64,000 nucleotides of DNA from Rhodothermales bacterium. Its GTDB lineage: Bacteria; Bacteroidota; Rhodothermia; Rhodothermales; Bin80. Below, in pieces: positions 1,358 through 38,773 of this stretch. A program made the position numbers and the translations under genes. The notes beneath the pieces were generated by a model. That model had not been told where the DNA came from and ran no database searches. It worked only from the letters and a program-made list of their open reading frames with translations. Where the stretch lies: contig JAJECV010000006.1 in the NCBI GenBank assembly GCA_022821875.1, forward strand, positions 98,886 to 162,885, read 5' to 3'. Position 1 is the stretch's first letter. Every line of letters begins with the position of its first letter.

Positions 1358-1845
1358 TCCATGGTACAGTGCTGGTGGAGGGGGCGGCTTCCGGTCCGCT
1401 TCTGGTCAGTGATACACCGCTTAGTTTCTGGGGCGGCTACAGCCAGTTCACGGGCGAGGTCATTGATCGTCGGCATCCATTGTCGGGGGAAATTGCGACG
1501 GATTGCATTCTGGCCATTCCTGCATCCAGAGGCTCCAGCACTACCACGGCAGTGCTGCTGGAAGCAGTCCGCAGGGGCACTGCGCCCGCCGCCCTGATCA
1601 CAAATCAGATGGATACATTTTTGGTTCTTGCTTCAATCGTGGCAGATGAACTTTATCAAAAACCGATTCCGGTCTTCGCCCTGGATATCGAAGCGTTTGC
1701 ATTGCTGAGTAGCGGTCAGTATGCAGTACTGAATCCAGATGGAAACGTCATAGTCAGGGATCGGCAGGGCAGGGTTTCCGGGCCACAAGCACTTCCCGTT
1801 TCCCAGGTGGTCCAGGGCGGCGCATTACCGAGAACCCGCTCGTAA
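1345..1845 (+). CDS. Aconitase X swivel (small) subunit, DUF126 family
   Basis: 166-aa ORF with GAASGPLLVSDTPLSFWGGYSQFTGEVIDRRHPLSGEI...AIPASRGSSTTTAVLLEAVRRGTAPAALI, the typical DUF126 signature. Translationally coupled to the DUF521 ORF. Confidence 0.72.
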   Translation: MEHIIHGTVLVEGAASGPLLVSDTPLSFWGGYSQFTGEVIDRRHPLSGEIATDCILAIPASRGSSTTTAVLLEAVRRGTAPAALITNQMDTFLVLASIVADELYQKPIPVFALDIEAFALLSSGQYAVLNPDGNVIVRDRQGRVSGPQALPVSQVVQGGALPRTRS

Positions 1846-2467
1846 CCAGTGCTCGCCGGACACGGCCTGCGGCAGAATAGGTCGCAAGGCATCCGCCACC
1901 GCACAGGGTATCATGCAATTGCTGAATGAATTCCAATGTCCAAAGTATCGGGTTCGACTTCGGATCAAACGCGTCCAGATAGACACAGTCGTAGGCATTG
2001 GGAGACAGGTTCGCAGTCGTGGCCTCCCCGATATGCAGTTGAAGAATACTGCCCCCATCATGGGGTAAGTGATAGGTGCCGGAGGGGACTGCTCCATCAA
2101 AAGTTCCTCTCCACTGGATTAGATGCTGTGCAAGCGGCGGAGTCTCAATCAGTTCTCCGTAACTTAACCGGGACAGCAGGTCAGCATTTGGGATTTGCAA
2201 ATCCAGTCCGGTGTATGTGAGGGATACTTGATGACGCAGGGCAAGTGATGCAGTCAGGAGCCAATTTAATCCTGCACCGAAGCCGACCTCTAAAATGGAC
2301 ATTTCTTTTCTGGACTGGAACAGTTCCGATAGCTTCGCACCTTCAAGAAACACATGGCTGGCTTCTGTCAAAGCGCCGTGCATGGAGTGAAATGACTGCC
2401 GAAATGCATGGCTGTACAGGGTACGGCTTCCATCCCTTGTGGTACGGATTTCAAGGGAATCTTCCAT
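1754..2467 (-). CDS. tRNA mnm5s2U methyltransferase-like protein (MnmC methyltransferase domain, DUF752)
   Basis: 237-aa ORF with TRDGSRTLYS...FHSMHGALTEASHVF, a SAM-binding ILEVGFGAGLN motif, and DCVYLDAFDPKSNPILW. Confidence 0.7.
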   Translation of the reverse strand: MEDSLEIRTTRDGSRTLYSHAFRQSFHSMHGALTEASHVFLEGAKLSELFQSRKEMSILEVGFGAGLNWLLTASLALRHQVSLTYTGLDLQIPNADLLSRLSYGELIETPPLAQHLIQWRGTFDGAVPSGTYHLPHDGGSILQLHIGEATTANLSPNAYDCVYLDAFDPKSNPILWTLEFIQQLHDTLCGGGCLATYSAAGRVRRALVTSGFSVMRRPGPPGKREVLVARKPCPADP

Positions 2468-2952
2468 ATGAACGGATACACTCTGGAAAGATTAGGGGTA
2501 GAATCCCCCAATTTACTGCAAAGATCGGAAGGGGCAAACTGTGGGCTGCCGCCGCCATGCACGGCCGTTCTCCACGGGCGCTCAGGTGTGAGCATAATTA
2601 CGGGATTTAGATCGGTCGGATACCATGGGAGGGCAGCGTTTGATTCCATTGGCTTTGCAGGGCGCAGCACGGCCACACACATCATCCGTATTCAGGATTT
2701 GCACCGCACCGCACCGCACTGCTGTACGGAGCGTTCATGTTATGACTCCAGTGATCCCTGAAATGGATTCGTGGGGAGATGCGTGATGTTACTCCTCACG
2801 GACATGATGTTCTATCTGAAACTGGTTCCATGTTGTTCAGACGCATTTTCAGACAGGAGAAACAGCACTGAAAACAAAGGGATTGAAACTTTCCAGACAG
2901 GTGCGTGTATACACTGACTGAGACGTGCTTAATGCAGCGATCTCCTTCCGGG

Positions 2953-2983
2953 GCCCACGCAATAGCGTGGGCTTCCGTGTTTC
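2953..2983 (+). terminator. Unit-1 hairpin plus T-rich tail (terminator-like)
   Basis: gcccacgc-aata-gcgtgggc followed by ttccgtgtttc. Confidence 0.4.
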
Positions 2984-3273
2984 TGATAAGATCCTGATCA
3001 AGTCCAGAAGCTTCACCTACCCGGTGAACCCGGTCATTGCTCCGATAGATTGGGGTTTTTCTCTGTCCTATCCTGATACCCCTTACAATATTCAACCTGC
3101 AGATGCAGGTGTGCCATCAGTTTATTCAAGTGAGTATTTTTCGGTTTCCTCCTCGTAGTACGAATGCTTTTCTGCGCAGTTTAAGGTGGCGGATATGGGC
3201 TATTGAAGCTATTTGAATTTTAGTCCGTATACTATGGGTGAGGCGCGGTCCATGTGAGCGCCCTCTTTCCGAG

Positions 3274-3303
3274 GCCCACACTTGTTGTGGGCTTTCGTGT
3301 TTC
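3274..3303 (+). terminator. Unit-2 hairpin plus T-rich tail (terminator-like)
   Basis: gcccaca-cttgt-tgtgggc followed by tttcgtgtttc. The seventh stem pair is A:T where unit 1 has G:C. Confidence 0.4.
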
Positions 3304-3593
3304 GGGTATCCTCCTAGTTGAGTCCAAAAACTTCACCTACCCAATGAAACCGATCATTGCTGCGACAGACTGGGATTTTTCTCTGTCCTATCCTGATCCC
3401 CCTTACAGCATTCAAATTGTAGATACAGGTGTGCCATAAGTTCTTCAAGGAAGCTTTTTTTGGTTTCCGCCTCGTAGTACGAATGCTTTTCTGCGCAGCA
3501 GGGGAGGTGGATAGATGGGTGATTGAAACTATTTAAGTTATAATCCGTATATTACTCATGAGACGCGGTCCATGTGAGCGCCCTCGTTCCGAA

Positions 3594-3623
3594 GCCCACA
3601 CTTGTTGTGGGCTTTCGTGTTTC
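3594..3623 (+). terminator. Unit-3 hairpin plus T-rich tail, immediately upstream of the DUF3800 start
   Basis: Identical to the unit-2 hairpin. It sits 15 nt upstream of ATG 3638. Confidence 0.4.
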
Positions 3624-3637
3624 TACACCTTAGGTCA

Positions 3638-4390
3638 ATGCTTTTTGTTTACCTTGACGAATTTGGTCACATTGGTCCGTTTATAGATCGCAGGCATTCG
3701 CGACACAACGACAGCCCTGTATTCGGTTTGGCAGGATTCGCGATACCGGCAGATTCAGCACGACATTTTGGAACTTGGTTCTTTGAAAAGAAATACCAAA
3801 TGCTAGGGGCTGAGATCGAGTTGTCTGGTAAGCATCCGTGGGAATGGGAAAAGAAGGGAGTGAGTCTCTACCGTTCGAAGAGTCTGCATCGTTACTCATG
3901 GCTTCGTCATTTTACTTTACGATTGTTCTCTAAAATTCAGGGTTTAGATGGCTTCATATTCTACTATGGAATTGAGAAGACTGCCACACTTGATGAACAC
4001 AATCCAATTGGGATGTATCGGAATATCTTGCGACAATCAATAAAGCGAATAGACGATTTTTGCGAGAATTCGCACCCCGCCCCCGATAATTTTATAATGA
4101 TATTAGATGAAAATACTCAGCGTAAAAACTTAATTGCGCAAGCAGCGCAAAGTATGTACGGTAATGTTGATCAATGCAAACGCTTAATTGAACCGCCGTT
4201 TCATCTTGAAAGTCATCGTTATCAAAATTTACAAGTTGCAGATTGGATTGCCGGCCTTGTTGGGCGGCTGGGTGCACTCCAGGCCGATCCAAGGGCATTT
4301 TCAGAAAATGTTGTGTTCACCCGCTACTTTCAATCCCGACTAAAACAGGCCGCCCGGAAGTCGGGAATCAGGAAGGCATTGCACGGATAG
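3638..4390 (+). CDS. DUF3800 domain protein (function unknown)
   Basis: The ORF track opens at 3602, but the in-frame ATG at 3638 gives MLFVYLDEFGH, the family-typical N-terminus (hydrophobic-Y-x-D-E-x-G). The C-terminal LQVADWIAGLV matches the family Q-x-A-D motif. Confidence 0.75.
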   Translation: MLFVYLDEFGHIGPFIDRRHSRHNDSPVFGLAGFAIPADSARHFGTWFFEKKYQMLGAEIELSGKHPWEWEKKGVSLYRSKSLHRYSWLRHFTLRLFSKIQGLDGFIFYYGIEKTATLDEHNPIGMYRNILRQSIKRIDDFCENSHPAPDNFIMILDENTQRKNLIAQAAQSMYGNVDQCKRLIEPPFHLESHRYQNLQVADWIAGLVGRLGALQADPRAFSENVVFTRYFQSRLKQAARKSGIRKALHG

Positions 4391-4476: not shown

Positions 4477-5121
4477 ATGCTTAGTCCGGCGATTCAGGAT
4501 TACCTGAAAGTGATCTTTACGATCCAGGAAGAGAATGCCGTGGTCACCACCACAGATATCGCCCGTACCATGAATGTGTCCGCTGCATCCGTGACGGGAA
4601 TGATCAAACGCCTGGATCGGATGAAACTGGTCGTGCATGAATCGTACAAAGGTGTAAAACTCACCGGTGCCGGCGAAAAAATTGCGCTGGAAATCATCCG
4701 ACATCACCGACTGCTGGAAACCTACCTCCGGGAAATCATGGGCTACTCCTGGGAAAAAATGCATGCGGAAGCAGAACATCTGGAGCATCATATTTCTGAA
4801 GACTTCGAGGAGCGGATAGATGCACTTTTGGGGTACCCCACTCATGATCCCCACGGGCACCCAATTCCAACTCATGACCTCAAGATGGTCCGCACAAAGA
4901 CCATCGCACTCTCAGAGGCCCCCACGGGTGAACTGCTGTCCATTCACCATCTGTCCGATTCGGATGCGAATCTACTGGGACTACTGGAAAAAACGGGCCT
5001 GTTGCCCGGGTGTGAAGTTCGGATTATTGAACGCAACGACACCGGAATGAATGTGATAATTGGAAGGCGGGAAGAGTTTATTCAGGAAAAAGCAGCAGAC
5101 AGCGTGCATGTAATCATTTAA
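4477..5121 (+). CDS. DtxR/MntR-family metal-dependent transcriptional repressor with a C-terminal FeoA/SH3-like domain
   Basis: AIQDYLKVIF...TTDIARTMNVSAASVTGMIKRLDRMKLV (wHTH), HHRLLETYL, and EAEHLEHHIS...HDPHGHPIP metal ligands. ATG at 4477 chosen over the TTG at 4468. Confidence 0.8.
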   Translation: MLSPAIQDYLKVIFTIQEENAVVTTTDIARTMNVSAASVTGMIKRLDRMKLVVHESYKGVKLTGAGEKIALEIIRHHRLLETYLREIMGYSWEKMHAEAEHLEHHISEDFEERIDALLGYPTHDPHGHPIPTHDLKMVRTKTIALSEAPTGELLSIHHLSDSDANLLGLLEKTGLLPGCEVRIIERNDTGMNVIIGRREEFIQEKAADSVHVII

Positions 5122-6038
5122 AGAATTGTTTTCCCCAGAAGGGAGGCCAGAAGGCTGGCAGCCAGCTCCGCGGTCTGGTTGCCCCGGTCGATGATGGGGT
5201 TGATCTCAACGACCTCTGCCGAAGCAAGGCGGCCGTCCTCTGCGATCAGTTCCATCAGCAGATGCGCCTCCCGCGGACGGAGACCTCCCTCGACCGGCGT
5301 GCCAACCCCCGGTGCAAAATAGGGGTCTACACTGTCTACGTCAAAGCTGACATGCAGATGATCGCAGTGCTCAAGCTGTCTGAGCGCAGATTTTACAACC
5401 TCTGCAATGCCACGCTCATCAATGTCCCGCATCGTGTACAGGCCCAGGCGGGATTCCTGTAAAATGCGACGCTCGGCAACATCCAGATCACGCAGGGCAA
5501 TCATCGCAATATCTTCGGAGCGCAGTTTCGGGCCGGAACGCCCCACGCTGGTTAACCGGTCAGATCCAATTCCGCAGAGTACGGCCATCGGCATCCCGTG
5601 GACATTGCCGCTAGGAGAAGACTCGGGGGTGTTAAAATCTGCGTGTGCATCAATCCAGAGGATCCCCTTCGGGGCATCATGTGTGGCTCCGCCAATGCTT
5701 CCAATCGCAATGGAATGATCGCCTCCCATCACCAACGGGAAGCCGCCCTGGGCGAGCGTTTTGCGAACCTCCTCGTATAACAGGCTGCAGGTATCCCGAA
5801 TGGGTTCCGTAAAATCGTTCCCGTCCGTCAGCGAGGCCCGGAGTGCAGTTGGAATATTTCCATGGTCAGAGACCTGATGCCCTAATTGGCGCAGACGATC
5901 TGCAAGTCCGGCATAGCGAAGGGCACTGGGGCCGACATCCACCCCACGTAAATTCTGGCCCAGATCCATGGGGACTCCGATCAGACGGATGTTACGAAGT
6001 TGTTGATTCATGGGGCTAAATCCCTTTGTTATAGTCAA
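5118..6038 (-). CDS. rocF: Arginase (ureohydrolase family)
   Basis: [32 protein letters not shown] and SFDVDSVDP manganese-binding motifs. TTG start; an internal ATG (MNQQL) is also possible. Confidence 0.8.
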
Positions 6039-6183
6039 AACGAAGCAGATTCGTTAATTTTGGGGCTTATATACCTGAGTGCCCATACTTAGGGAACTTT
6101 TTCCAGTCAGGTGGATAAAACGAATACAATCGGGAAGGATAGTGCCTCCCCGATTGCCTACACAAGATCATCCGCTTGATGCT

Positions 6184-7485
6184 ATGCCCGTTAAAGATTG
6201 TAAGACAAAGCCCTCCGTCGGTTCAGGGGAACGGCAACATGTAACGATCCGCTTTCGTCTGCGAGGCGACAAGAAGACCTGCCGGTTCCTGAATGGACTG
6301 GCGGGTGTCAACCGGTATCTCTGGAATGCGGCGCTGGCAAAAGCCAAAGAGGATTACACGGAAACCGGAAAATCCCAGACCTCTCAGTTTGATTTCTACA
6401 CGTGGTATAAAGTACACAAGGATACGGTCGCACCATGGCTAAGAGATTATCCCGTAAACGCGACTCGCACCGGACTGAAGGATCTGGCGGATGCTTACAA
6501 GCAGTTCTTCAAGAAAAAGCGGGGGTTCCCTAGGTTCAAGAAAAGGGGCAAGGCGAAAAAAAGCTTCAGCGTAGATGTGTCAGGGGGGAAGATATTTTCA
6601 ACGAATGGATATGTTCGGCTAAAGCGGGGCATGCATATGAAGATGCTGCGATTTTATCGAGTGAACCGCTACACAAACTCGGTGCCCAAGACGGCCCGCA
6701 TCTTTGAAGAAAATGGAAACTGGTATATGACAGTCGTCTATGAAGTGGACGCTACCCTGCAAGATGCGGACGGCATTGGCATTGGGGTCGACCGTAATTG
6801 CGGACAGGTTGATGACAGTGCGGGAAGGATCTTCTATCTGACCGACACATCTGATATTGAAAAGCGCATTAAGAAGCTTCAACGCCGACTAGCGAAAAAA
6901 CAGAAAGGAATTCATTCCTGGAGGAGACGAAAGAAAACCATTGCACGCCATGAACGCAAGATCAAGAACATCCGAAGGAATGACTTGCGTCCTATTGCCT
7001 TATCGCTCACCGAAATCTCTGAGCTTGTAATCCTGGAAGACCTGAAAACCAAGGGTATGACCGCAAGCGCGAAAGGAACGGTCGAGAATCCGGGCAGGAA
7101 GGTGAGGCAGAAAACGGGACTGAACCGCTTGATACTGGGAACAGGATGGGCGATACTGGAGCAGTTCCTGCGAGAGCGAGACATGGTGATCAAGGTGCCC
7201 CCGTATTCTACATCACAGACATGTAGCAAGTGTTCCTGTGTGAACGCAAAGAACCGGCATAGGCAGTCCGAGTTTCTATGTCTGACGTGCGGGTACCAAG
7301 CGAATGCGGACTCAAATGCGTCCGTAAATATCCGGGCATCGGGGGATGGCATGCTGGCGCGAATTGTGCCGAACGGGTTGTGGAGCCTATGGTTGACCTG
7401 TCCTTGCGGAGCGCAAGCCTGCAAGGACAGGCAACGGGCAACGAAACACCAAAAAGACCATGAGAGCTGTTGCTCATGGACATAA
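6184..7485 (+). CDS. tnpB: TnpB (IS605 OrfB) RNA-guided endonuclease
   Basis: RuvC-I GIGVDRN, RuvC-II LVILEDLK, zinc ribbon CSKCSC...CLTCG, RuvC-III ANADSNASVNI. The start is uncertain (GTG 6079 or ATG 6184). Confidence 0.85.
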   Translation: MPVKDCKTKPSVGSGERQHVTIRFRLRGDKKTCRFLNGLAGVNRYLWNAALAKAKEDYTETGKSQTSQFDFYTWYKVHKDTVAPWLRDYPVNATRTGLKDLADAYKQFFKKKRGFPRFKKRGKAKKSFSVDVSGGKIFSTNGYVRLKRGMHMKMLRFYRVNRYTNSVPKTARIFEENGNWYMTVVYEVDATLQDADGIGIGVDRNCGQVDDSAGRIFYLTDTSDIEKRIKKLQRRLAKKQKGIHSWRRRKKTIARHERKIKNIRRNDLRPIALSLTEISELVILEDLKTKGMTASAKGTVENPGRKVRQKTGLNRLILGTGWAILEQFLRERDMVIKVPPYSTSQTCSKCSCVNAKNRHRQSEFLCLTCGYQANADSNASVNIRASGDGMLARIVPNGLWSLWLTCPCGAQACKDRQRATKHQKDHESCCSWT

Positions 7486-7553
7486 TTCCCAAGGCTGTAA
7501 ACGAATCCTATACCTTGTTGTAATGTATAAATTAAAAAATCGAAGGGGTTCCC
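7330..7553 (+). ncRNA. Expected omega/reRNA scaffold overlapping the tnpB 3' end (position inferred, not demonstrated)
   Basis: In characterised TnpB elements the guide RNA scaffold overlaps the 3' end of tnpB and ends at the IS right end. Here there are stems ccttgc...gcaagg (about 7401-7425) and ccatgag...ctcatgg (7458-7479), and the last ~55 codons of the ORF look non-protein-like. Confidence 0.3.
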
Positions 7554-9593: not shown

Positions 9594-10640
9594 TCACCGT
9601 TCGTTACGATTCTGCATGACAGTGTCCACAAACTCCAATACCGCTGAGCATGTTTTTTCCCATTCTTTACTATTCTTGAAGGACAGCGAGTGGCCGCCGT
9701 GCGGCCACTCGCTGAGATCGACTGACTCACCAAGTCGGCCAAGCGCATCGTCTCCGCCCAACTGCTCGGCTTGCGGCAGGATGCTCACGCTATAGATGCC
9801 TTCCCCGAGGTAACCGGCCTGTACGCCGAAATAGCCTTTCCAACTCTTTGAACCATTGGGCCCCGGATCCATAAACCGGAAGCTGATCCCTGTTTTGCCT
9901 ATCTGTTCCCATGGGCCCTGCTGTGGTAGACGCTCTCGAATGTCGTTGCGTATACGATCAAAGAACTGTTCGTAGCTGTGCTCTTTCAAGTAGTGTCGCA
10001 AGGCTTGGCGTTGCTCAGCCGCAGTGACGGAACGAGGACGTATCTGGTTTTCGCCATCTGGACTTACCTCTATTTGTCGAGCCAACAAGGTCTCGCCACC
10101 CCGACGGAACCCATGAAAGGTGATGACCGAGAGTTCAACTGCCCCTGCTGACACGAATTGCGCCATTCGTTCGGTGGCTTCATCCATGCCAAAACCGATC
10201 AAGGTCATCCGCGGCGGTAACAAGCGGGACAGATCATCATCTTCGAACGTGTCGGCGTACCATTGTTCGAAGTTCTCAATTCGCGGAATACCAGCTTCCC
10301 CCGAGCGATTCGAGATGTGTTTGGCAACTTGTGCCGGGGTCATGGAATTCAGTGCCGAAGCATAATCCAGGATCTGCGTCACGGCATCCCGTGCGAGGTT
10401 GCCGCGCTTTAATTCGTAGACTACCAGACGTCCGTCGCCGTCAACCGCAAGCAAATCCAACCATCCTCCAGCGGTTGGTGTCTGTCGCCCAACCAACTGT
10501 AGCCCAGGCTCAAGCATTTCTGGATTGGAAACCAGAACGTTCTCAAACTCCCATTCGGTAGGCATCTGTGAGATCTTTGGAACGAATTCGATTCTGTTTG
10601 ATCCGTCTACAGCCCACAACTTGAGTTCCCGAATCATCAC
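9594..10640 (-). CDS. NucS/DUF91-like PD-(D/E)xK nuclease-domain protein with a ~200-aa C-terminal extension
   Basis: EWEFENVLVSNPEMLEPGLQLVGRQ...GGWLDLLAVDGDGRLVVYELKRG is the DUF91/NucS C-domain pattern (D...E-x-K). Confidence 0.6.
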   Translation of the reverse strand: MMIRELKLWAVDGSNRIEFVPKISQMPTEWEFENVLVSNPEMLEPGLQLVGRQTPTAGGWLDLLAVDGDGRLVVYELKRGNLARDAVTQILDYASALNSMTPAQVAKHISNRSGEAGIPRIENFEQWYADTFEDDDLSRLLPPRMTLIGFGMDEATERMAQFVSAGAVELSVITFHGFRRGGETLLARQIEVSPDGENQIRPRSVTAAEQRQALRHYLKEHSYEQFFDRIRNDIRERLPQQGPWEQIGKTGISFRFMDPGPNGSKSWKGYFGVQAGYLGEGIYSVSILPQAEQLGGDDALGRLGESVDLSEWPHGGHSLSFKNSKEWEKTCSAVLEFVDTVMQNRNER

Positions 10641-10992
10641 TTGGTAAATTGCTGATAAAGTACTCGTTTCGGTGTCGTGTCTCCAATAATATCAATCATA
10701 CCCATACTGACTCTCTTTGCCATCGGTTTAAGGATCAAGTGCCACAATATACTTCACTCGTCTGAAAAGATCAGTTGCACCTCCATCAAACTGTACAACC
10801 ATAGTGTCAACACACAATTTTTAGAGCCACTAATTCAGTGATCACATAGCCTCGGAGGGGGTTTTGAAATTCATTGCTTAATCTAAGCCGCCAACGTTGC
10901 CAGGTTGAAAATCGCCTGATCATGGGTCCATCGGGAGTGGAACCTTTAAAAAGGTACTATGGTATAAAAATTTATAAAGTTAGGTATCTTTT

Positions 10993-12273
10993 ATGCAAAA
11001 CTTCCATCGAACACATGTCGAACGATTGATAGAATTTATTTCAGGTACCTCCGACATGCGGCTTATCGCCATTATTGGTCCTCGTCAGGTTGGCAAAACG
11101 ACCATTGCGCTTCAGGCCCGACAGAAGCTGGTTGAAGCAGGGTTTACATGTCAGTACATTGCCATCGACAATCCACATCTAAATCAGTCGGACTGGCCTG
11201 GAGATGCAGGCATCTCTGATACCACGCTGATTGAGAAATTTGCGAATCCCAAGACTCTTGTGAACATATGGGAGAGTGCCCGCAAGGCTTCGCTAAAGTC
11301 TCCCCGGGGGCATATTTTGTTTCTGGATGAAGTTCAACTCATTCCACAGTGGTCAAATTATGTGAAGGGGCTGTGGGACAGAGACCGTATGGACGGCTAT
11401 CCCCTCCGTGTGGTAATCCTGGGATCAGCAGTCTGGCAGATGCTTATTGGCCGTAACGAGAGTCTCACAGGTCATTTCCGCGAATTACCCGTCAGTCACT
11501 GGTCATTTAAAGAAATGACCAAGGTATTCGGTCTGACGGCGGAGCAATTTATGTTTTATGGCGGTTATCCTGCCTCCCTGCCCGACGAATCGGAAACATC
11601 GCCGTTTGATTATTGGCGTGACTATATTGCAAAAACCATTGTGGACTCGGTGATTGGTCGGGACATATTGGGTTTGAAACAGATCAAGAAACCTGCCTTG
11701 ATGCGCCAATTAATTGACATCGCCCCCCGCTACTCTGGCCGAATCATGGCATACAATAAGTTCTTGGGGCTACTTCAAGATAAGGGCAATGCAACGACGG
11801 TTAAACATTACCTGAACCTGCTTTCTAATGCAGGCCTGATTACTACGTTGTCGAGATACACTCCAATGCCACATCTGGGCATCGCCTCACGCCCCAAGTT
11901 TAATGTTCTGAACACGGCACTGATGACGGCACTGTCCGGTTATTCGTTTGAGGAGATACAAATTGACCGGTCTTTTTGGGGCCGTGTTGTAGAGAGTGCA
12001 GTGGGGGCCCATCTATGTAACACGCGGAATACGGCTACCGACATTCATTATTGGCGTGACAAGAATGGCGATTATGAGGTTGATTTTGTCATCTCACGCG
12101 GCCCCCATCTTGTCGGCGTGGAGGTTAAGAGCGGCAAGCAGCAGACACACCGTGGATTAGAGGCATTCAAGGATCGTTTTCCGCATGCCAAAACAATGAT
12201 CGTGGGTCCAGGTGGCTTTCCGTTCCATGAGTTTTTGTCGTTGAATACCGACGAGTGGATTGAATATCTGTGA
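10993..12273 (+). CDS. AAA+ ATPase with DUF4143 C-terminal domain (COG1373-like)
   Basis: Walker A GPRQVGKTT, Walker B ILFLDEVQ, and a C-terminal DIHYWRDKNGDYEVDFVI...VGVEVKSG nuclease-like fold typical of DUF4143. Confidence 0.75.
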   Translation: MQNFHRTHVERLIEFISGTSDMRLIAIIGPRQVGKTTIALQARQKLVEAGFTCQYIAIDNPHLNQSDWPGDAGISDTTLIEKFANPKTLVNIWESARKASLKSPRGHILFLDEVQLIPQWSNYVKGLWDRDRMDGYPLRVVILGSAVWQMLIGRNESLTGHFRELPVSHWSFKEMTKVFGLTAEQFMFYGGYPASLPDESETSPFDYWRDYIAKTIVDSVIGRDILGLKQIKKPALMRQLIDIAPRYSGRIMAYNKFLGLLQDKGNATTVKHYLNLLSNAGLITTLSRYTPMPHLGIASRPKFNVLNTALMTALSGYSFEEIQIDRSFWGRVVESAVGAHLCNTRNTATDIHYWRDKNGDYEVDFVISRGPHLVGVEVKSGKQQTHRGLEAFKDRFPHAKTMIVGPGGFPFHEFLSLNTDEWIEYL

Positions 12274-15200
12274 ATCCAACCATGCAGCGTATCTCTCGTA
12301 CGGTCACACTCATTGAACCCCAGAATGATCCGCGTTTTGGGAAAGCTGGACTGTCATTGCAGGACTTTGATTGTGATCATGGGTATGTTCTTCTGGGGGA
12401 GCCGGGAATGGGCAAGAGCACAGAGTTTGAATCTGCAATTGATGGATTTGATGGTAGACATTGTATTTCGGCCCGAAGATTTATCCGGGCCGATTTTGAT
12501 CGTCACCCGGAATGGCGAACCAAAACAATTTTCATTGACGGGCTTGATGAAATGCGTGTTGGTGGGGGAGACCCAAGAGCAGTGCTGGACGAGATCATTC
12601 GTGGTCTGGAAGCATTGGGAACCCCCAAATTCCGGCTGTCCTGCCGCTCTGCCAACTGGTTGGGGGCTGGTGACCGGAATGAGCTCGGTTCGCTTTTAGA
12701 CCCAGACAAAATTCCAGTACTCCAATTGGACCCGCTGAACTATGAGGACATTCGGGAGATCGTTTCTCAACGGGGGCAGGATGCAAACACGTTCATTCCG
12801 CAAGCCCATGAGTACGGTATGGATGCCTTACTCGGGAATCCGCAACTGCTTGACTTCCTGATCACATCCGTCAAGGCAAAGGGCTGGCCTGACAGCCAGT
12901 TGAAAATGCTTGAAAACGCCTGTCGGGAGCTCGTCCGAGAAAAAAACATTGAGCATCTTGATGCCCAATCATCCAGTTCACTGCAACCCCGGGAAGCAAT
13001 CTTAACTGCAGCCGGAAAGCTTTGTGCGTGCATGCTGATCGCAAACAGGACTGGTTGGGCGGGCAGTGATACGGATGACTCCGAGATTCTATCTATCCGT
13101 GATTTGGAAGGCGACCAAGGTTTCCCCATCCAGGCAGCATTTGATTCAGGGATCTTTGAAGGTTCGCCCAGTTTCAAAGTTCCGATCCATCGACTTATCG
13201 CCGAATTCCTTGGTGCACGCTATTTGCACAAAAAAATCCAGAGAGGCCTAAGCGTCCGGCGTGCTCTCTCCCTTCTCATGGAACACAATGGAATTCTTTT
13301 GCCCGATCTAAGGGGACTGGCTGCCTGGCTCGCTGCATTCAATGAGCAGGCAAGAGCAATTCTGATACAGATCGCTCCAATGACGGTGGCTTTCCATGGA
13401 GATGCCAGCGGTTTCAGTCCTATTGAGCGAAATAAATTACTCGCGAAACTGGAACAACAAATCCATTTGAACTCCGACTGGCCTTCCGCTGCTGCCCTTC
13501 GTGCTTTAACCGGCAAAGAAGGCATACCAATTATCCAGGATTTAACGAATTCGCCTGAACGTTCACAAAACAGGCAAACGCTGGTTTATTTGCTCCTTCG
13601 GGGATGCTCACAATTGTATCTTGATACGAGCATGTCAGACTGGGCGACCGATCACCAAAGCCTGCTGAATATTGTTCGTGATCACAGTTGGCAATCAAGT
13701 GTTCGTTGCGAGGCACTCGGAGCTTTGAGCCGGATATCTCATCAGATTCCGCAGTGTAGCAATCTATTGAGAGATCTCCTTGAGGATGTGCAGGAAAAAC
13801 GTATATCGGACGAAGAACACGATCTGCGGGGCACATTACTTCATCTTATCTATCCTGACGGGCTACATCCTGAGGAGATATGGGATTACCTCGTGGCGGG
13901 GCCGGTGACTGCTTATTTGGGCGGTTATCGAAACTTTTTTTCAAGCCTCGTTGAGCGATCAAATGAGGGTCAGATCAGAGAATTACTCGACTCTCTTTGC
14001 AATCGCGCTCCCGAAGCCATTCCAAAATTAGAGGATCAAAAACTTGCAGATGTTATTTTCCGGATTCTTGCAAGGGGGTTGGAATTATTTGGAGATGAGT
14101 TGAGCATATCCGAGTTGTACCGATGGTTTACACTGGTTGAATTCTACCATAATTCGTTACAACTTTCCTCAGTTCACACTTCAAACTCAAGTTTTAGCCA
14201 GCACGATGAAGCGGACAGTACAATCCGTAATTGGCTGAATCAGCATAAGCGTATCCAGTACAGTCTTATTGAACATGGTCTATCCATTGAAGAAGCGAGC
14301 ATTGGGAGCAAAGTTCTTATTGAAACTATAGGATGCAAATTCGTGGGCAGGAATGCACCAGAAGGATTTCGATTGTGGTGTCTTGAGCGTGCGGTACAGC
14401 TCTGGGTCTCAAATCAAACTGTGGCAAGAGAACTCGCATCATGGTCCGTCTCTAATCTGATGCAAGTGGGCGGGGAGCCGCCCCTCTCGGATAAGGAGGT
14501 CAGTTCCGTAGTGTCTGGTACGCCTGGGTTGGTCCAGTGGAATGATCAACGCCTGAAGGAAAGGGCGAAGTCTGAACTTGAGTTCAGTGAGATCAGGAAG
14601 AAACAGAAGGAAATCCGAAGTGTCCATCAAAAAGAAAAGCAGGAAAAACTTAAAACCCTTCGCCAACAACAGACCATGTTGGCAAAGGGGCAGTGCATGC
14701 CTGTAATTCTTGATGAACTTGCCCATGTTTACTTTGATAACCCTGACACAAATGAAAGTAATCCAGAGACTTGCCTGCAGTCATATTTTGAAGGTGATGA
14801 GAAGCTCGTAGAGGCAACGCTGGATGGGTTTCGCAGCCTGCTGGGCCGGGATGATCTCCCGGATCTTGGTCAAATTGCCCAGCTCTATGAAGATGGCAAG
14901 CGATCCTATTTTGCACTCCCTTTTCTTGCAGGAATGGAAGAGGCATACAAGGCGAATAAGAATCTGAGCCATCTCTCCGAAACGGGGATTCGGCGGGCAC
15001 TGGGATTTTATCTGACTACAGAATCTCCTCGTCAGCACTACTATCATTTAATCAATTATATGGGCGGTGACAGCACATCTCCCGCATGGTATAAGCAGGC
15101 ATTAGAGCACTATCCAGAGGCTGTGGCTGATTCATTGGTTTATGTGCACAACGCAACGGTCCGCTCCAAAAATCCGCCGAATTCCGAAATGTACAAGATG

Positions 15201-38349: not shown

Positions 38350-38357
38350 TTGGTGGT

Positions 38358-38756
38358 ACGTGCTGACCTGTAAGCCGAATTCTGTCTCTCCGGCACCGCA
38401 ACCACCGTGCGGCGAAGCCGGAAGGATCATCATCTATCTGGGACCGGTGTCACCACGGGCCTCTAGCAACCTACCCGCACCGCAGTTTGGCGGGCCGCCT
38501 TATCGCTTGCGCGTGCGATGCTGTTTGGTTTTGCTCCGCGTAGGGTTTACCTAGCCACCATGGTCACCCATGATGCTGGTGGGCTCTTACCCGCACCATT
38601 TCACCCATCACCTGGCCTGTAAGGGCCATCGGCTGGCCTGCTTTCTGTTGCACTTGCCGTCATCGCTAAGCGATGCCTTCCCGTTAGGAAGTACGGTGCC
38701 CTATGGAGTTCGGACTTTCCTCCCTGCCTTTCGACGGGGCGATGATCCAGCCAACA
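38358..38756 (-). ncRNA. rnpB: RNase P RNA, bacterial type A (ends +/- 10 nt)
   Basis: The minus strand reads ...GGCAGGGAGGAAAGTCCGAACTCCATAGGGCA..., GGGTGAAATGGTGCGGGTAAGAGCCCACC, and GACAGAATTCGGCTTAC. These are the universally conserved P4/J11-12/P4' segments in the correct order. Confidence 0.9.
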
Positions 38757-38773
38757 TGTTATCCGCCCTGATA

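What the first reader, a model, noticed from the sequence alone, without database searches (positions are those of the whole stretch)
2878..3640. Tandem ~320-nt structured repeats running directly into a DUF3800 gene: a candidate RNA-protein (type III TA-like) system
Seen: no credible CDS lies between 2467 and 3638. A head-to-tail array fills the space from 2878 to 3623, with a 321/320-nt period and unit anchors at 2953, 3274 and 3594. The units are roughly three-quarters identical by eye. Perfectly conserved blocks alternate with diverged stretches, for example a 29-nt block cctcgtagtacgaatgcttttctgcgcag at 3151 and 3470, ttctctgtcctatcctgat, and cgcggtccatgtgagcgccctc. That is the conservation pattern of a functional RNA, not of a recent duplication. 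The last truncated unit ends 15 nt before the DUF3800 ATG, on the same strand. Established: type III toxin-antitoxin/abortive-infection loci (ToxIN-like) consist of tandem RNA repeats, a terminator, then a single toxin gene. Separately, comparative genomics has reported several orphan structured-RNA motifs upstream of DUF3800 genes (the DUF3800 RNA motifs), whose function is unknown. Inference: this may be a repeat-RNA plus DUF3800 effector module. The unit is about ten times longer than known toxI-type repeats, and DUF3800 is not a recognised type III toxin, so it would be new.
Basis: partly seen in the sequence, partly recalled or inferred. Interest (0 to 1): 0.85.

Follow-up and report, generated by a model that had tools for sequence, protein, structure and literature searches.

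The report
Amplified leader RNA of DUF3800 nuclease
The 320-base repeats are real, but the functional part is a 65-base two-hairpin RNA at the end of each unit, apparently undescribed, that sits in front of one family of DUF3800 (RNase H-like) genes in many bacterial phyla, plasmids and a phage, and has been copied three times here.

Summary
Window 2985-3304 and 3305-3624 are head-to-tail 320-nt units, about 84% identical. A partial third copy ends at 2984. The array runs to 13 nt before the DUF3800 ATG at 3638.

The conserved, structured element is not the 320-nt unit. It is a 65-nt module at each unit's 3' end (2920-2984, 3240-3304, 3560-3624). The module is hairpin 1, the linker UUCCGAGG, a GC-rich hairpin 2, and the tail CUUUCGUGUUUC. 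A promoter-like site precedes each copy.

The same module lies directly upstream of DUF3800 genes in all 79 genome loci tested, from more than 10 phyla. It also precedes 68 of 81 metagenome hits, plasmid copies, and the copy in Aeromonas phage phiO18P, where it occupies the P2 old/tin hotspot position. Covariation is strong. No Rfam 15 family matches it.

The roughly 205-nt spacers evolve at about the neutral rate and show no consistent folding signal. Copy number varies from 1 to 3 among close relatives through unequal crossing-over.

The gene-distal copy is 100% conserved while its flanks diverge. This points to a function for the RNA itself.

The most likely reading is a promoter-RNA-terminator-nuclease module that works like a type III toxin-antitoxin system. 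It is not a member of the known type III families. Toxicity and RNA-protein binding are untested.

The parts
2883..2913 (+). Promoter-like site of leader copy 0 (TTGAAA 2883-2888, 19-nt spacer, TATACA 2908-2913, 6 nt to G2920)
   Evidence: It occupies the same position as the clear TTGAC-N17-TAnnnT promoters that end 6-7 nt before the leader in all non-Rhodothermales loci. The function is inferred. The 19-nt spacer is atypical.
2920..2984 (+). Leader RNA copy 0. It is gene-distal and 'orphan': hairpin 1 (remodelled by compensatory changes), linker, hairpin 2, U-rich tail.
   Evidence: Covariance-model score 65 bits, E=1e-15. Fold -31.3 kcal/mol, z=-4.2. It is 65/65 identical in window, L003, L012 and L013, although third codon positions of flanking genes differ by 9-15% and the next 100 nt differ by 20-27%.
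2985..3202 (+). Spacer of unit A, with no assigned function
   Evidence: Fold z=+0.41. It is 81% identical to spacer B and 82-84% to L003 spacers. Homology to the L005 spacer is only weak and collinear, z=4.8. It is not similar to the DUF3800 CDS.
3203..3233 (+). Promoter-like site of leader copy A (TTGAAG 3203-3208, TATACT 3228-3233)
   Evidence: positional homology. Inferred.
3240..3304 (+). Leader RNA copy A
   Evidence: Covariance-model score 69.9 bits, E=5e-17. The fold is hairpin 1 plus hairpin 2, z=-3.5.
3305..3522 (+). Spacer of unit B, with no assigned function
   Evidence: Fold z=-2.0. It is 90.7% identical to the orthologous L003 spacer, which is about the neutral rate given DtxR third positions at 8.9% divergence.
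3523..3553 (+). Promoter-like site of leader copy B, the promoter of the DUF3800 mRNA (TTGAAA 3523-3528, TATATT 3548-3553)
   Evidence: There is no room for another promoter between 3624 and 3638.
3560..3624 (+). Leader RNA copy B. It is the 5' leader of the DUF3800 mRNA. Hairpin 2 (3591-3615) plus the tail is terminator-like.
   Evidence: Covariance-model score 67.8 bits. Terminator-like site found by scan. z=-3.9. Differences from the L003 and L012 orthologues lie at unpaired positions or preserve pairing.
3638..4390 (+). DUF3800 gene (250 aa), an RNase H2-like nuclease candidate. The family-invariant acidic residues are present: D7, E8, D157, E191, D202 (QxxD).
   Evidence: Pfam PF12686 E=3e-17. 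Invariant columns listed. AlphaFold2 model of low confidence (pLDDT 57, pTM 0.59). Best PDB matches are RNase HII 1eke (E=2e-4), RNase H3 and RNase H2. This agrees with PMC7736814 and PMC10910872.

Best explanation
The array is three tandem copies of one small cassette. Each copy has a promoter, a 65-nt two-hairpin RNA and a terminator-like end, followed by about 205 nt of spacer. The last copy also serves as the 5' leader of the DUF3800 mRNA.

Shown: the 65-nt RNA is a conserved structured motif. It travels with this subfamily of DUF3800 (RNase H2-like) genes as a self-contained module of about 1 kb, through many phyla, plasmids and a P2-like phage.

Shown: the 320-nt period is a by-product of unequal crossing-over that amplified the RNA gene in one Rhodothermales lineage. 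A Spirochaetia MAG did the same independently. The spacers are not functional RNA.

Inferred mechanism:
- Transcription starts at the first G of hairpin 1.
- Most transcripts stop at hairpin 2 and its U-rich tail, giving a free RNA of about 60-65 nt.
- A minority read through into a gene with a weak start codon, so the RNA is far in excess of the protein.
- The RNA is the dedicated ligand of the nuclease. The protein would recognise the near-invariant linker UUCCGAGG and the tail CUUUCGUGU, presented by the two hairpins.
- The RNA holds the nuclease in check, either by sequestering it or as its autoregulatory substrate.
- The check lasts until RNA supply falls, for example when a phage shuts off host transcription. 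[quoted passage not shown]
- Extra copies raise the RNA dose.

The confidence given (0.5) is for the whole statement. The 'what it is' part alone I hold at about 0.85, and the inferred RNA-restrains-nuclease mechanism at about 0.4.
For: Structure:
- The MAFFT alignment of 66 leaders is 92% paired. 14 of 20 pairs show compensatory changes. 0 of 500 shuffles reach the observed values. Slid controls give 35-57% paired.
- A more diverse, model-fitted set of 83 leaders has 297 double-change cells against 93 in shuffles.
- G-U outnumbers A-C by 51 to 8 once two fixed positions are excluded. The structure is therefore on the sense strand, as RNA.

Linkage to DUF3800:
- A full-length leader lies directly upstream of the gene in every genome locus from Rhodothermales, Alpha- and Gammaproteobacteria, Acidobacteriota, Gemmatimonadota, Binatia, Dehalococcoidia, Nitrospinota, Spirochaetia and others.
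- 68 of 81 metagenome leaders have DUF3800 a median of 14 nt downstream, with protein identity down to 34%.
- Leaders are also present on a Sulfitobacter plasmid (73 bits), in phage phiO18P (51 bits), on a Pseudomonas plasmid (37 bits), and weakly on a Providencia plasmid (23 bits, E=2e-4, near the detection limit).
- No neighbouring gene recurs, and nothing is conserved after the stop codon.

Expression layout:
- TTGAC-N17-TAnnnT ends 6-7 nt before the leader's G1 (also in phiO18P).
- The hairpin 2 tail is 8-25 nt from the start codon, so the gene can only be expressed by read-through.
- Start codons are GTG 26, TTG 11, ATG 20.

The RNA has its own function:
- Orphan copy 0 is 65/65 identical across four relatives, while neutral sites differ by 9-15% and its flanks by 8-27%. 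Both of its hairpins were rebuilt by compensatory changes.
- An independent promoter-plus-leader duplication exists in L053.
- DUF3800 is disrupted in L005-L008, L012 and L014 while the leaders stay intact. This is the decay order expected of a toxin-antitoxin pair.

Amplification:
- The L013 unit is an exact chimera of L003 units 1 and 2. Copy number ranges from 1 to 3 among close relatives.

Genomic context:
- In phiO18P the cassette lies between the replication gene and the portal gene. This is the P2 old/tin defence hotspot (PMC9122126).
- Orphan leaders lie next to AbiEii/AbiEi, Abi_2 and a NaeI restriction-modification/Vsr island.
- DUF3800 is linked in the literature to retrons, Cas12a2/a3 and mobile elements (PMC7736814, PMC10910872, PMC13594972).
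Against: - There are no expression data, and no evidence that DUF3800 is toxic or binds or cleaves the leader.
- PADLOC and NCBIfam do not recognise the protein.
- Most loci have a single leader, always in cis between promoter and start codon. A purely cis-acting role would explain that too.
- The U-tract (UUUCGUGUUUC) is interrupted, so termination efficiency is unknown.
- The Rhodothermales promoter assignment has a 19-nt spacer.
- The perfect identity of copy 0 could in principle reflect recent recombination rather than selection.
- One leader is followed by a HEPN-like ORF instead of DUF3800. That fits a generic regulatory cassette as well as a dedicated ligand.
- The protein model is of low confidence.
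Confidence: 0.5

Rival explanations
1. The leader is purely cis-acting. It would be an attenuator, an mRNA-stabilising 5' hairpin or a translational control element of the DUF3800 mRNA, possibly an autoregulatory target like the rnc, rne and pnp leaders. On this view the upstream copies are neutral leftovers of tandem duplication with no function.
For: - The leader always lies between promoter and start codon, on the same strand.
- It is single-copy in more than 95% of loci.
- A possible alternative helix between the 5' strand and the tail is 94% paired, which could make a switch.
- Ribonuclease genes commonly have autoregulatory structured leaders (established knowledge).
Against: - Orphan copy 0 lies about 650 nt and two terminator-like hairpins upstream of the gene. 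It is nonetheless 100% conserved, with compensated hairpins and its own promoter, while its flanks diverge.
- Duplication recurred independently in another phylum.
- Leaders persist where the gene is broken.
- Orphan leaders exist next to other defence genes.
- The alternative helix is supported almost only by invariant or G-U pairs.
Confidence: 0.27
2. One reading: the whole unit of about 320 nt is a large structured RNA, and the array is a repeat-RNA antitoxin that DUF3800 processes into unit-length RNAs.
For: - The tandem array is real and abuts the gene.
- Some spacer blocks of 22-29 nt are identical in all six units of the closest relatives.
- Spacer B folds slightly better than shuffles, z=-2.0.
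Against: - Only the 3' 65-110 nt of the unit is detectable in the sister clade, where the protein is 74-79% identical.
- Spacers evolve at about the neutral rate.
- Spacer A has z=+0.41.
- Each unit ends in a terminator-like hairpin and carries its own promoter.
- About 150 other loci have no repeat at all.
- Run-length clustering is marginal.
Confidence: 0.03
3. The element acts at the DNA level. The two inverted repeats would be operators or recombination or attachment sites of a small mobile cassette, not an RNA.
For: - Both hairpins are palindromes in DNA.
- The cassette is clearly mobile between phyla and replicons.
- Compensatory changes alone cannot distinguish a palindrome from an RNA helix.
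Against: - There is strand asymmetry. G-U outnumbers A-C by 51 to 8, and pair 46-70 is G-U in 57 of 66 sequences.
- The element starts at the predicted transcription start and is only ever found in one orientation relative to the gene.
- The conserved single-stranded linker and tail are not palindromic.
- There are no conserved cassette ends or flanking repeats.
Confidence: 0.05
4. The RNA is a positive cofactor, a scaffold or guide-like partner needed for DUF3800 nuclease activity, rather than an inhibitor.
For: - The RNA and protein are linked with the same tightness as under the inhibitor model.
- The RNase H-like fold is shared with RNA-guided nucleases.
- The apical part of hairpin 1 is hypervariable in length and sequence.
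- Earlier DUF3800 motifs occur on either side and either strand of the gene (PMC5737381).
Against: - There is no variable single-stranded segment that could act as a guide.
- The weak-start, terminator-first design points to keeping the protein scarce relative to the RNA.
- Genes decay while RNAs persist.
Confidence: 0.1

Closest known systems
DUF3800-associated RNA motifs (DUF3800-I to -XI; Weinberg et al. 2017, PMC5737381)
   Same: It is a conserved structured RNA specifically linked to DUF3800 genes. It is present in several phyla and ends in a Rho-independent-terminator-like hairpin. Its function is unknown.
   Different: No Rfam 15 family matches it, including the deposited DUF3800 motifs, even at E<=5-10. 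It always sits as the 5' leader with its own promoter, whereas DUF3800-I is 'only rarely in potential 5' UTRs' and occurs on either side and strand. It occurs in tandem, independently transcribed copies in two lineages. I could not inspect the 2017 supplementary alignments, so identity with a motif not deposited in Rfam is not excluded.
Type III toxin-antitoxin / abortive-infection loci (ToxIN, CptIN, TenpIN; PMC3401426)
   Same: The gene order is the same: constitutive promoter, non-coding RNA, palindromic terminator, single nuclease gene. The design would give RNA in excess over protein. The genomic context is mobile elements and defence regions. In this window the RNA is tandemly repeated.
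   Different: The RNA unit is 65 nt in a 320-nt period, against 31-62-nt contiguous repeats. Each copy has its own promoter and terminator, so no processed precursor is expected. Repetition is absent in most members. The protein is RNase H2-like, not ToxN-fold. Toxicity, processing and complex formation are untested.
Autoregulatory 5' leaders of ribonuclease genes (rnc, rne, pnp)
   Same: It is a structured 5' UTR in front of a nuclease gene. A conserved leader that could be bound or cut by its own product would keep a dangerous enzyme scarce.
   Different: Those leaders are not duplicated as stand-alone promoter-RNA-terminator units, are not maintained as orphans, and do not travel between phyla with the gene.
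Tandem riboswitches and attenuators
   Same: Complete leader-plus-terminator units are repeated head to tail upstream of one gene.
   Different: Here each unit carries its own promoter, and about 205 nt of non-conserved spacer separates the units. The motif is two simple hairpins with no junction or pocket typical of aptamers, and no antiterminator pairing was found.

Membership tests
Type III toxin-antitoxin (criteria of Blower et al. 2012, PMC3401426) | [quoted passage not shown] | tested here: met
   A hairpin (3591-3615) plus U-rich tail lies 13 nt before the ATG at 3638. The same holds in all homologous loci. Termination itself was not measured.
Type III toxin-antitoxin (criteria of Blower et al. 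2012, PMC3401426) | The terminator is preceded by a tandem array of short nucleotide repeats (31-62 nt, 1.9-5.6 copies) transcribed as one precursor from one promoter | tested here: not met
   The period is 320 nt. Each unit has its own promoter-like site and terminator-like hairpin. More than 95% of family loci have one copy only.
Type III toxin-antitoxin (criteria of Blower et al. 2012, PMC3401426) | The toxin has the ToxN/CptN/TenpN endoribonuclease fold | tested here: not met
   The protein matches Pfam DUF3800. The best structural matches are RNase HII, H3 and H2 (from a low-confidence model). This is consistent with PMC7736814.
Type III toxin-antitoxin (criteria of Blower et al. 2012, PMC3401426) | The protein is toxic, the RNA neutralises it by direct binding, and the toxin processes the RNA | not testable with these tools
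   This needs expression, rescue and binding experiments.
DUF3800-associated RNA motifs (PMC5737381) | A conserved RNA secondary structure supported by covariation | tested here: met
   92% paired, 14 of 20 pairs with compensatory change, 0 of 500 shuffles reaching the observed values. Strand asymmetry is shown.
DUF3800-associated RNA motifs (PMC5737381) | [quoted passage not shown] | tested here: met
   79 of 79 genome loci. 68 of 81 metagenome leaders, 3 of the remainder at contig ends. Plasmids and a phage.
DUF3800-associated RNA motifs (PMC5737381) | Identity with one of the described motifs I-XI | tested here: inconclusive
   There is no match to any Rfam 15 model in the window or in 28 related loci, including searches at E up to 1-10. 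The 2017 supplementary alignments are not held, so a motif not deposited in Rfam cannot be excluded.
Intrinsic (Rho-independent) terminator | A GC-rich stem-loop directly followed by a U-tract on the transcribed strand | tested here: met
   The stem is 8-10 bp and GC-rich, with a 4-5-nt loop, followed by UUUCGUGUUUC. The scan flags 2 of the 3 copies. The U-tract is interrupted, so efficiency is unknown.
Riboswitch / ligand-sensing attenuator | An aptamer with a conserved junction or pocket, and mutually exclusive terminator and antiterminator pairings | tested here: not met
   Only two simple hairpins are present. No antiterminator was found. The only alternative helix (5' strand with the tail) does not compete with hairpin 2 and rests on invariant or G-U pairs.

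The most novel reading that the evidence does not exclude
The 65-nt leader and its DUF3800 RNase H2-like gene form a widespread, horizontally mobile two-component RNA-protein addiction or anti-phage module. [quoted passage not shown] Dosage would be tuned by amplifying stand-alone promoter-RNA-terminator genes. If true, this would give a function to the orphan DUF3800 RNA motifs in general.
Probability: 0.3. Interest if true: 0.85.

Novelty: new member of a known kind. Interest (0 to 1): 0.6.

Why it matters
Eleven RNA motifs have been known since 2017 to accompany DUF3800 genes, and no function has been assigned to any of them.

This motif is small, extremely conserved and always in a defined transcriptional position. 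It is present in culturable carriers: Aeromonas phage phiO18P, plasmids of Sulfitobacter and Pseudomonas with a weaker match in Providencia, and the genomes of Leisingera and Fulvimarina. It also comes with a natural experiment, namely stand-alone copies under purifying selection and genes that decay while the RNA persists.

That turns 'what do DUF3800 RNAs do?' into a directly testable question. The tests are toxicity and rescue assays, RNA binding and cleavage assays, and phage challenge.

If the RNA restrains an RNase H-like nuclease, it defines a new RNA-antitoxin class and a new candidate defence gene in the P2 old/tin hotspot.

It is also a caution for annotation. The striking 320-nt periodicity is a recombination by-product, not the functional unit.

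Tried and rejected
- **Rfam.** Searches at gathering and E-value thresholds on the window and 28 related loci found nothing relevant. The only hit in the array region was CRISPR-DR10 at 2853-2889 with E=8.4. It is a chance match to GATTGAAAC inside the -35-like site.
- **Spacers as decayed copies of the DUF3800 5' coding region.** By eye this looked plausible. Local alignment is not significant in the window (z=-0.3 and -0.6). It is significant only for the first ~40 nt after the leader in L004 (z=7.2) and weakly in L005 (z=3.2). tblastn and an nhmmer profile find nothing. The origin of the spacers is left open.
- **Coding potential of ORFs 2925-3158 and 3254-3439.** Rejected. There is no third-position excess, and one ORF was called by a pipeline in only one assembly, without any Pfam hit.
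- **The whole unit or the spacer as structured RNA.** Fold z-scores are +0.41 and -2.0.
- **Alternative long-range helix (5' strand with the tail).** It is 94% paired but uninformative.
- **First metagenome scan.** A Rhodothermales-specific pattern found nothing. A general pattern was then used.
- **E. coli genomes.** No homologue of the phiO18P cassette by blastn.
- **PDB by sequence, PADLOC and NCBIfam.** No hits for the protein.
- **Protein model.** The AlphaFold2 model built from 23 sequences is of low confidence (pLDDT 57). Its RNase H2 matches are used only as agreement with the literature.
- **Bulk Pfam scan of 138 neighbouring ORFs.** All-against-all clustering had already shown no recurrent neighbour.
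- **2017 supplementary files.** The Weinberg et al. supplement is not held.
Full report
**1. Observation**

The intergenic region between a divergently transcribed SAM-methyltransferase gene (1754-2467, minus strand, PF05430) and a DUF3800 gene (3638-4390, PF12686, E=3e-17) holds a head-to-tail repeat.

Tandem Repeats Finder reports 3001-3623, period 320, 1.9 copies and 83% matches. The repeat finder and blastn give units 2985-3304 (A) and 3305-3624 (B) at about 84% identity, plus a third, partial and more diverged copy ending at 2984.

They are unique to this locus within the 64-kb window.

Nothing in the array looks coding. A/B differences fall 12/13/8 over codon positions, and there is no protein similarity to DUF3800.

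**2. Anatomy of a unit**

Each unit ends in the same module of about 65 nt (2920-2984, 3240-3304, 3560-3624). The module is:
- hairpin 1 (GAGRCGC... / ...GCYCUC, with a bulged C);
- the linker UUCCGAGG;
- a GC-rich hairpin 2;
- the tail CUUUCGUGUUUC.

The three modules fold far better than shuffles, with z from -3.5 to -4.2. The spacers of about 255 nt between them do not fold consistently better than shuffles, with z=+0.41 and -2.0.

Hairpin 2 plus the tail is terminator-like.

**3. Orthologous loci**

The exact protein occurs on a metagenome contig (L001). Syntenic loci were found for relatives at 88%, 79% and 74% identity (L003, L005-L008, L004). All share the same gene order: methyltransferase, array, DUF3800, DtxR-family repressor, arginase.

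In the 74-79% clade blastn still finds two copies of the 3' 65 nt, about 320 nt apart. The rest of the unit is not recognisable by blastn. Pairwise alignment finds only weak, collinear similarity (z=4.8).

**4. The module is a widespread leader of DUF3800 genes**

A genome scan with a DUF3800 alignment returned 80 loci, out of 351 relatives found. The window's own lineage is Rhodothermales. The other loci come from Alpha- and Gammaproteobacteria, Acidobacteriota, Gemmatimonadota, Binatia, Dehalococcoidia, Nitrospinota, Spirochaetia, Thermodesulfobacteriota and others. Many MAG names are those of sponge-microbiome studies.

Every locus has the module directly upstream of the gene.

In all non-Rhodothermales loci a TTGAC-N17-TAnnnT promoter ends 6-7 nt before the module's first G. 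The transcript therefore begins with hairpin 1. The tail lies 8-25 nt from the start codon.

Start codons are mostly weak: GTG 26, TTG 11, ATG 20.

In Rhodothermales the equivalent position reads TTGAAA or TGnGAA, then N19, then CGTATAYW, then N6, then G. This assignment is inferred.

**5. Structure**

On a MAFFT alignment of 66 distinct leaders the two hairpins are 92% paired. Fourteen of 20 pairs show compensatory changes. None of 500 shuffles reaches the observed values. Slid controls give 35-57% paired.

A more diverse, model-fitted set of 83 leaders gives 297 double-change cells against 93 expected.

G-U pairs outnumber A-C by 51 to 8 outside two fixed positions. This places the structure on the sense strand, as RNA, and argues against a DNA palindrome.

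A covariance model (R1) finds only the three copies in the window (65-70 bits).

**6. Wider distribution**

A DNA-pattern scan of metagenomes gave 103 stretches. In the 80 fetched loci, 68 of 81 leaders have DUF3800 a median of 14 nt downstream, with 34-67% identity to the window protein. Three more leaders are at contig ends.

About ten leaders are orphans or precede something else:
- one precedes a HEPN-like ORF beside a Dcm/NaeI/Vsr island;
- others abut AbiEii/AbiEi or Abi_2 genes.

The protein also occurs on 21 plasmids and in Aeromonas phage phiO18P. The leader is present there too:
- Sulfitobacter plasmid, 73 bits;
- phiO18P, 51 bits, with a textbook sigma-70 promoter;
- Pseudomonas plasmid, 37 bits;
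- Providencia plasmid, 23 bits (E=2e-4, weak).

In phiO18P, a P2-like phage, the cassette lies between the replication gene and the portal gene. That is the old/tin position described as a defence hotspot (PMC9122126).

No neighbouring gene recurs across genome loci, and nothing is conserved after the stop codon. The mobile unit is therefore promoter, leader and gene, about 1 kb in all.

**7. What the 320-nt period is**

Tandem leaders exist only in one Rhodothermales clade and, independently, in a Spirochaetia MAG:
- window and L003, 3 copies;
- L004, L005, L008, L012 and L013, 2 copies;
- L053 (Spirochaetia), 2 copies 238 nt apart.

The single unit of L013 is an exact chimera of L003 unit 1 (5' part) and unit 2 (3' part). 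The L012 unit is an A/B mosaic. Copy number therefore changes by unequal crossing-over.

Between the window and L003 the identities are:
- DtxR gene, 96.6% identical, with differences 0/3/19 by codon position;
- orthologous spacer B, 90.7%, about the neutral rate;
- DUF3800 CDS, 90.6%, with many non-synonymous changes (24/14/33).

Within the window the leader has 4/65 A/B mismatches, against 40/205 in the spacer. The 'conserved blocks' pattern is only marginally non-random (P=0.098 and 0.006).

I could not show that the spacer derives from the 5' end of the gene.

**8. The upstream copies are not junk**

Copy 0 lies about 650 nt and two terminator-like hairpins upstream of the gene. It is 65/65 identical in window, L003, L012 and L013. 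Over the same comparisons:
- third codon positions of flanking genes differ by 9-15%;
- its own promoter region differs by 8%;
- the following 100 nt differ by 20-27%.

Relative to copies A and B, both of its hairpins were rebuilt by compensatory substitutions. It is the most stable of the three, at -31.3 kcal/mol.

DUF3800 is truncated or interrupted in L005-L008, L012 and L014, while their leaders score 62-77 bits.

**9. The protein**

The family-invariant acidic residues (D7, E8, D157, E191, D202) are present.

The AlphaFold2 model is of low confidence (pLDDT 57). Its best PDB matches are RNase HII (1eke, E=2e-4), RNase H3 and RNase H2. The literature reports the same for DUF3800 (PMC7736814, PMC10910872). 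PHROGs has the family with unknown function.

**10. Interpretation**

Shown:
- The array is an amplified set of promoter / 65-nt structured RNA / terminator-like cassettes.
- The RNA is a conserved partner element of one DUF3800 subfamily.
- It is not in Rfam 15.

Inferred:
- Most transcripts end after hairpin 2 as a small RNA, and a few read through into a poorly translated nuclease gene.
- The RNA is the specific ligand that restrains or autoregulates the nuclease.
- Extra copies raise its dose.

This is how type III toxin-antitoxin loci are built (PMC3401426). The locus fails two defining membership features: short contiguous repeats transcribed from one promoter, and a ToxN-fold toxin. Toxicity and binding are untested.

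The main rival is a purely cis-acting leader with neutral duplicate copies. The conservation of copy 0, the independent duplication in another phylum, and the persistence of leaders beside broken genes all weaken that rival.

**11. Novelty**

DUF3800 genes are already known to be accompanied by eleven unrelated RNA motifs of unknown function, several of them followed by terminators (PMC5737381). This looks like a further member.

It differs in two ways. It has a fixed position as a 5' leader, and it occurs as tandem stand-alone copies.

I could not inspect the 2017 supplementary alignments. Identity with a motif not deposited in Rfam therefore remains possible. I put that at roughly 15-20%, which is my own estimate.

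Noticed in passing
window 6079-7485 (+): A TnpB / IS605-OrfB-type gene (Pfam OrfB_IS605 and Cas12f1-like_TNB; PADLOC Cas12f E=5e-48) sits between the arginase gene and the next gene. It is absent from the orthologous loci L003 and L004. The window and the 98.9%-identical contig L001 diverge at 7490, directly after its 3' end. It therefore marks a rearrangement or an assembly breakpoint.
   Followed up: partly
window 38355-38758 (-): Bacterial RNase P RNA class A (Rfam RF00010, 244 bits). It is the only Rfam match at gathering score in the window.
   Followed up: no
window 3638-4390 vs L003 1226-1978: The DUF3800 CDS is 90.6% identical between close relatives, with differences 24/14/33 by codon position. 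The adjacent DtxR-family gene is 96.6% identical with 0/3/19. DUF3800 therefore evolves fast, with many amino-acid changes, through relaxed or diversifying selection or allele exchange.
   Followed up: partly
L110 12778-13394 (-) and neighbours 10355-12729: A full leader (71 bits) is followed by a 162-aa HEPN-like ORF rather than DUF3800 (Pfam HEPN E=0.003, below the cut-off). It lies beside a C5-methylase, a NaeI-type restriction enzyme and Vsr. The leader may have been re-used with a different RNase-type effector in a defence island.
   Followed up: partly
L147 4350-4420 (also L134, L149, L150); L152 4827-4883 (also L121): Orphan leaders with no DUF3800 downstream lie next to AbiEii/AbiEi (a type IV TA / abortive-infection pair) or near an Abi_2 gene.
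   Followed up: partly
L197 (Aeromonas phage phiO18P, NC_009542) 4860-5816: The leader (4910-4979) with a sigma-70 promoter (TTGCAA-N17-TATATT) precedes DUF3800 gene phiO18_18, which starts at TTG. It lies between the replication gene and the portal gene, which is the P2 old/tin defence-hotspot position. This is a culturable system for experiments.
   Followed up: yes
L053 2175-2239 and 2413-2480 (Spirochaetia MAG): An independent tandem duplication of promoter plus leader, 238 nt apart, upstream of a DUF3800 gene in an unrelated phylum.
   Followed up: partly
L007 ~740-1980 (and probably L014): An insertion of about 1.3 kb carries two ORFs (81 and 231 aa) with no Pfam match. It replaces the upstream leader unit and spacer in a Rhodothermales relative, and only the gene-proximal leader remains.
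   Followed up: no
Alignment A3, columns 1-7 with 74-80 (window 3560-3566 with 3617-3623): The 5' strand of hairpin 1 (GAGRCGC) can also pair with the conserved tail (GYGUUUC) in 94% of sequences, and ViennaRNA prefers this fold for copy B. The support comes almost only from invariant or G-U pairs. A conformational switch, or pairing of the 5' and 3' ends of the small RNA, is possible but unproven.
   Followed up: partly
L011 and L013 (same MAG, JAJEFL01), L011 position 1-30: One MAG holds two versions of the locus (98% and 87% protein identity to the window), and one contig breaks inside the leader. The repeat array probably fragments assemblies and mixes strains in bins.
   Followed up: no
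Loci L014-L090 (record titles): Proteins 50-60% identical, with near-identical leaders, occur in MAGs of at least 10 phyla. Many isolate names are typical of sponge-microbiome studies. This suggests intense horizontal transfer of the cassette within shared habitats.
   Followed up: no
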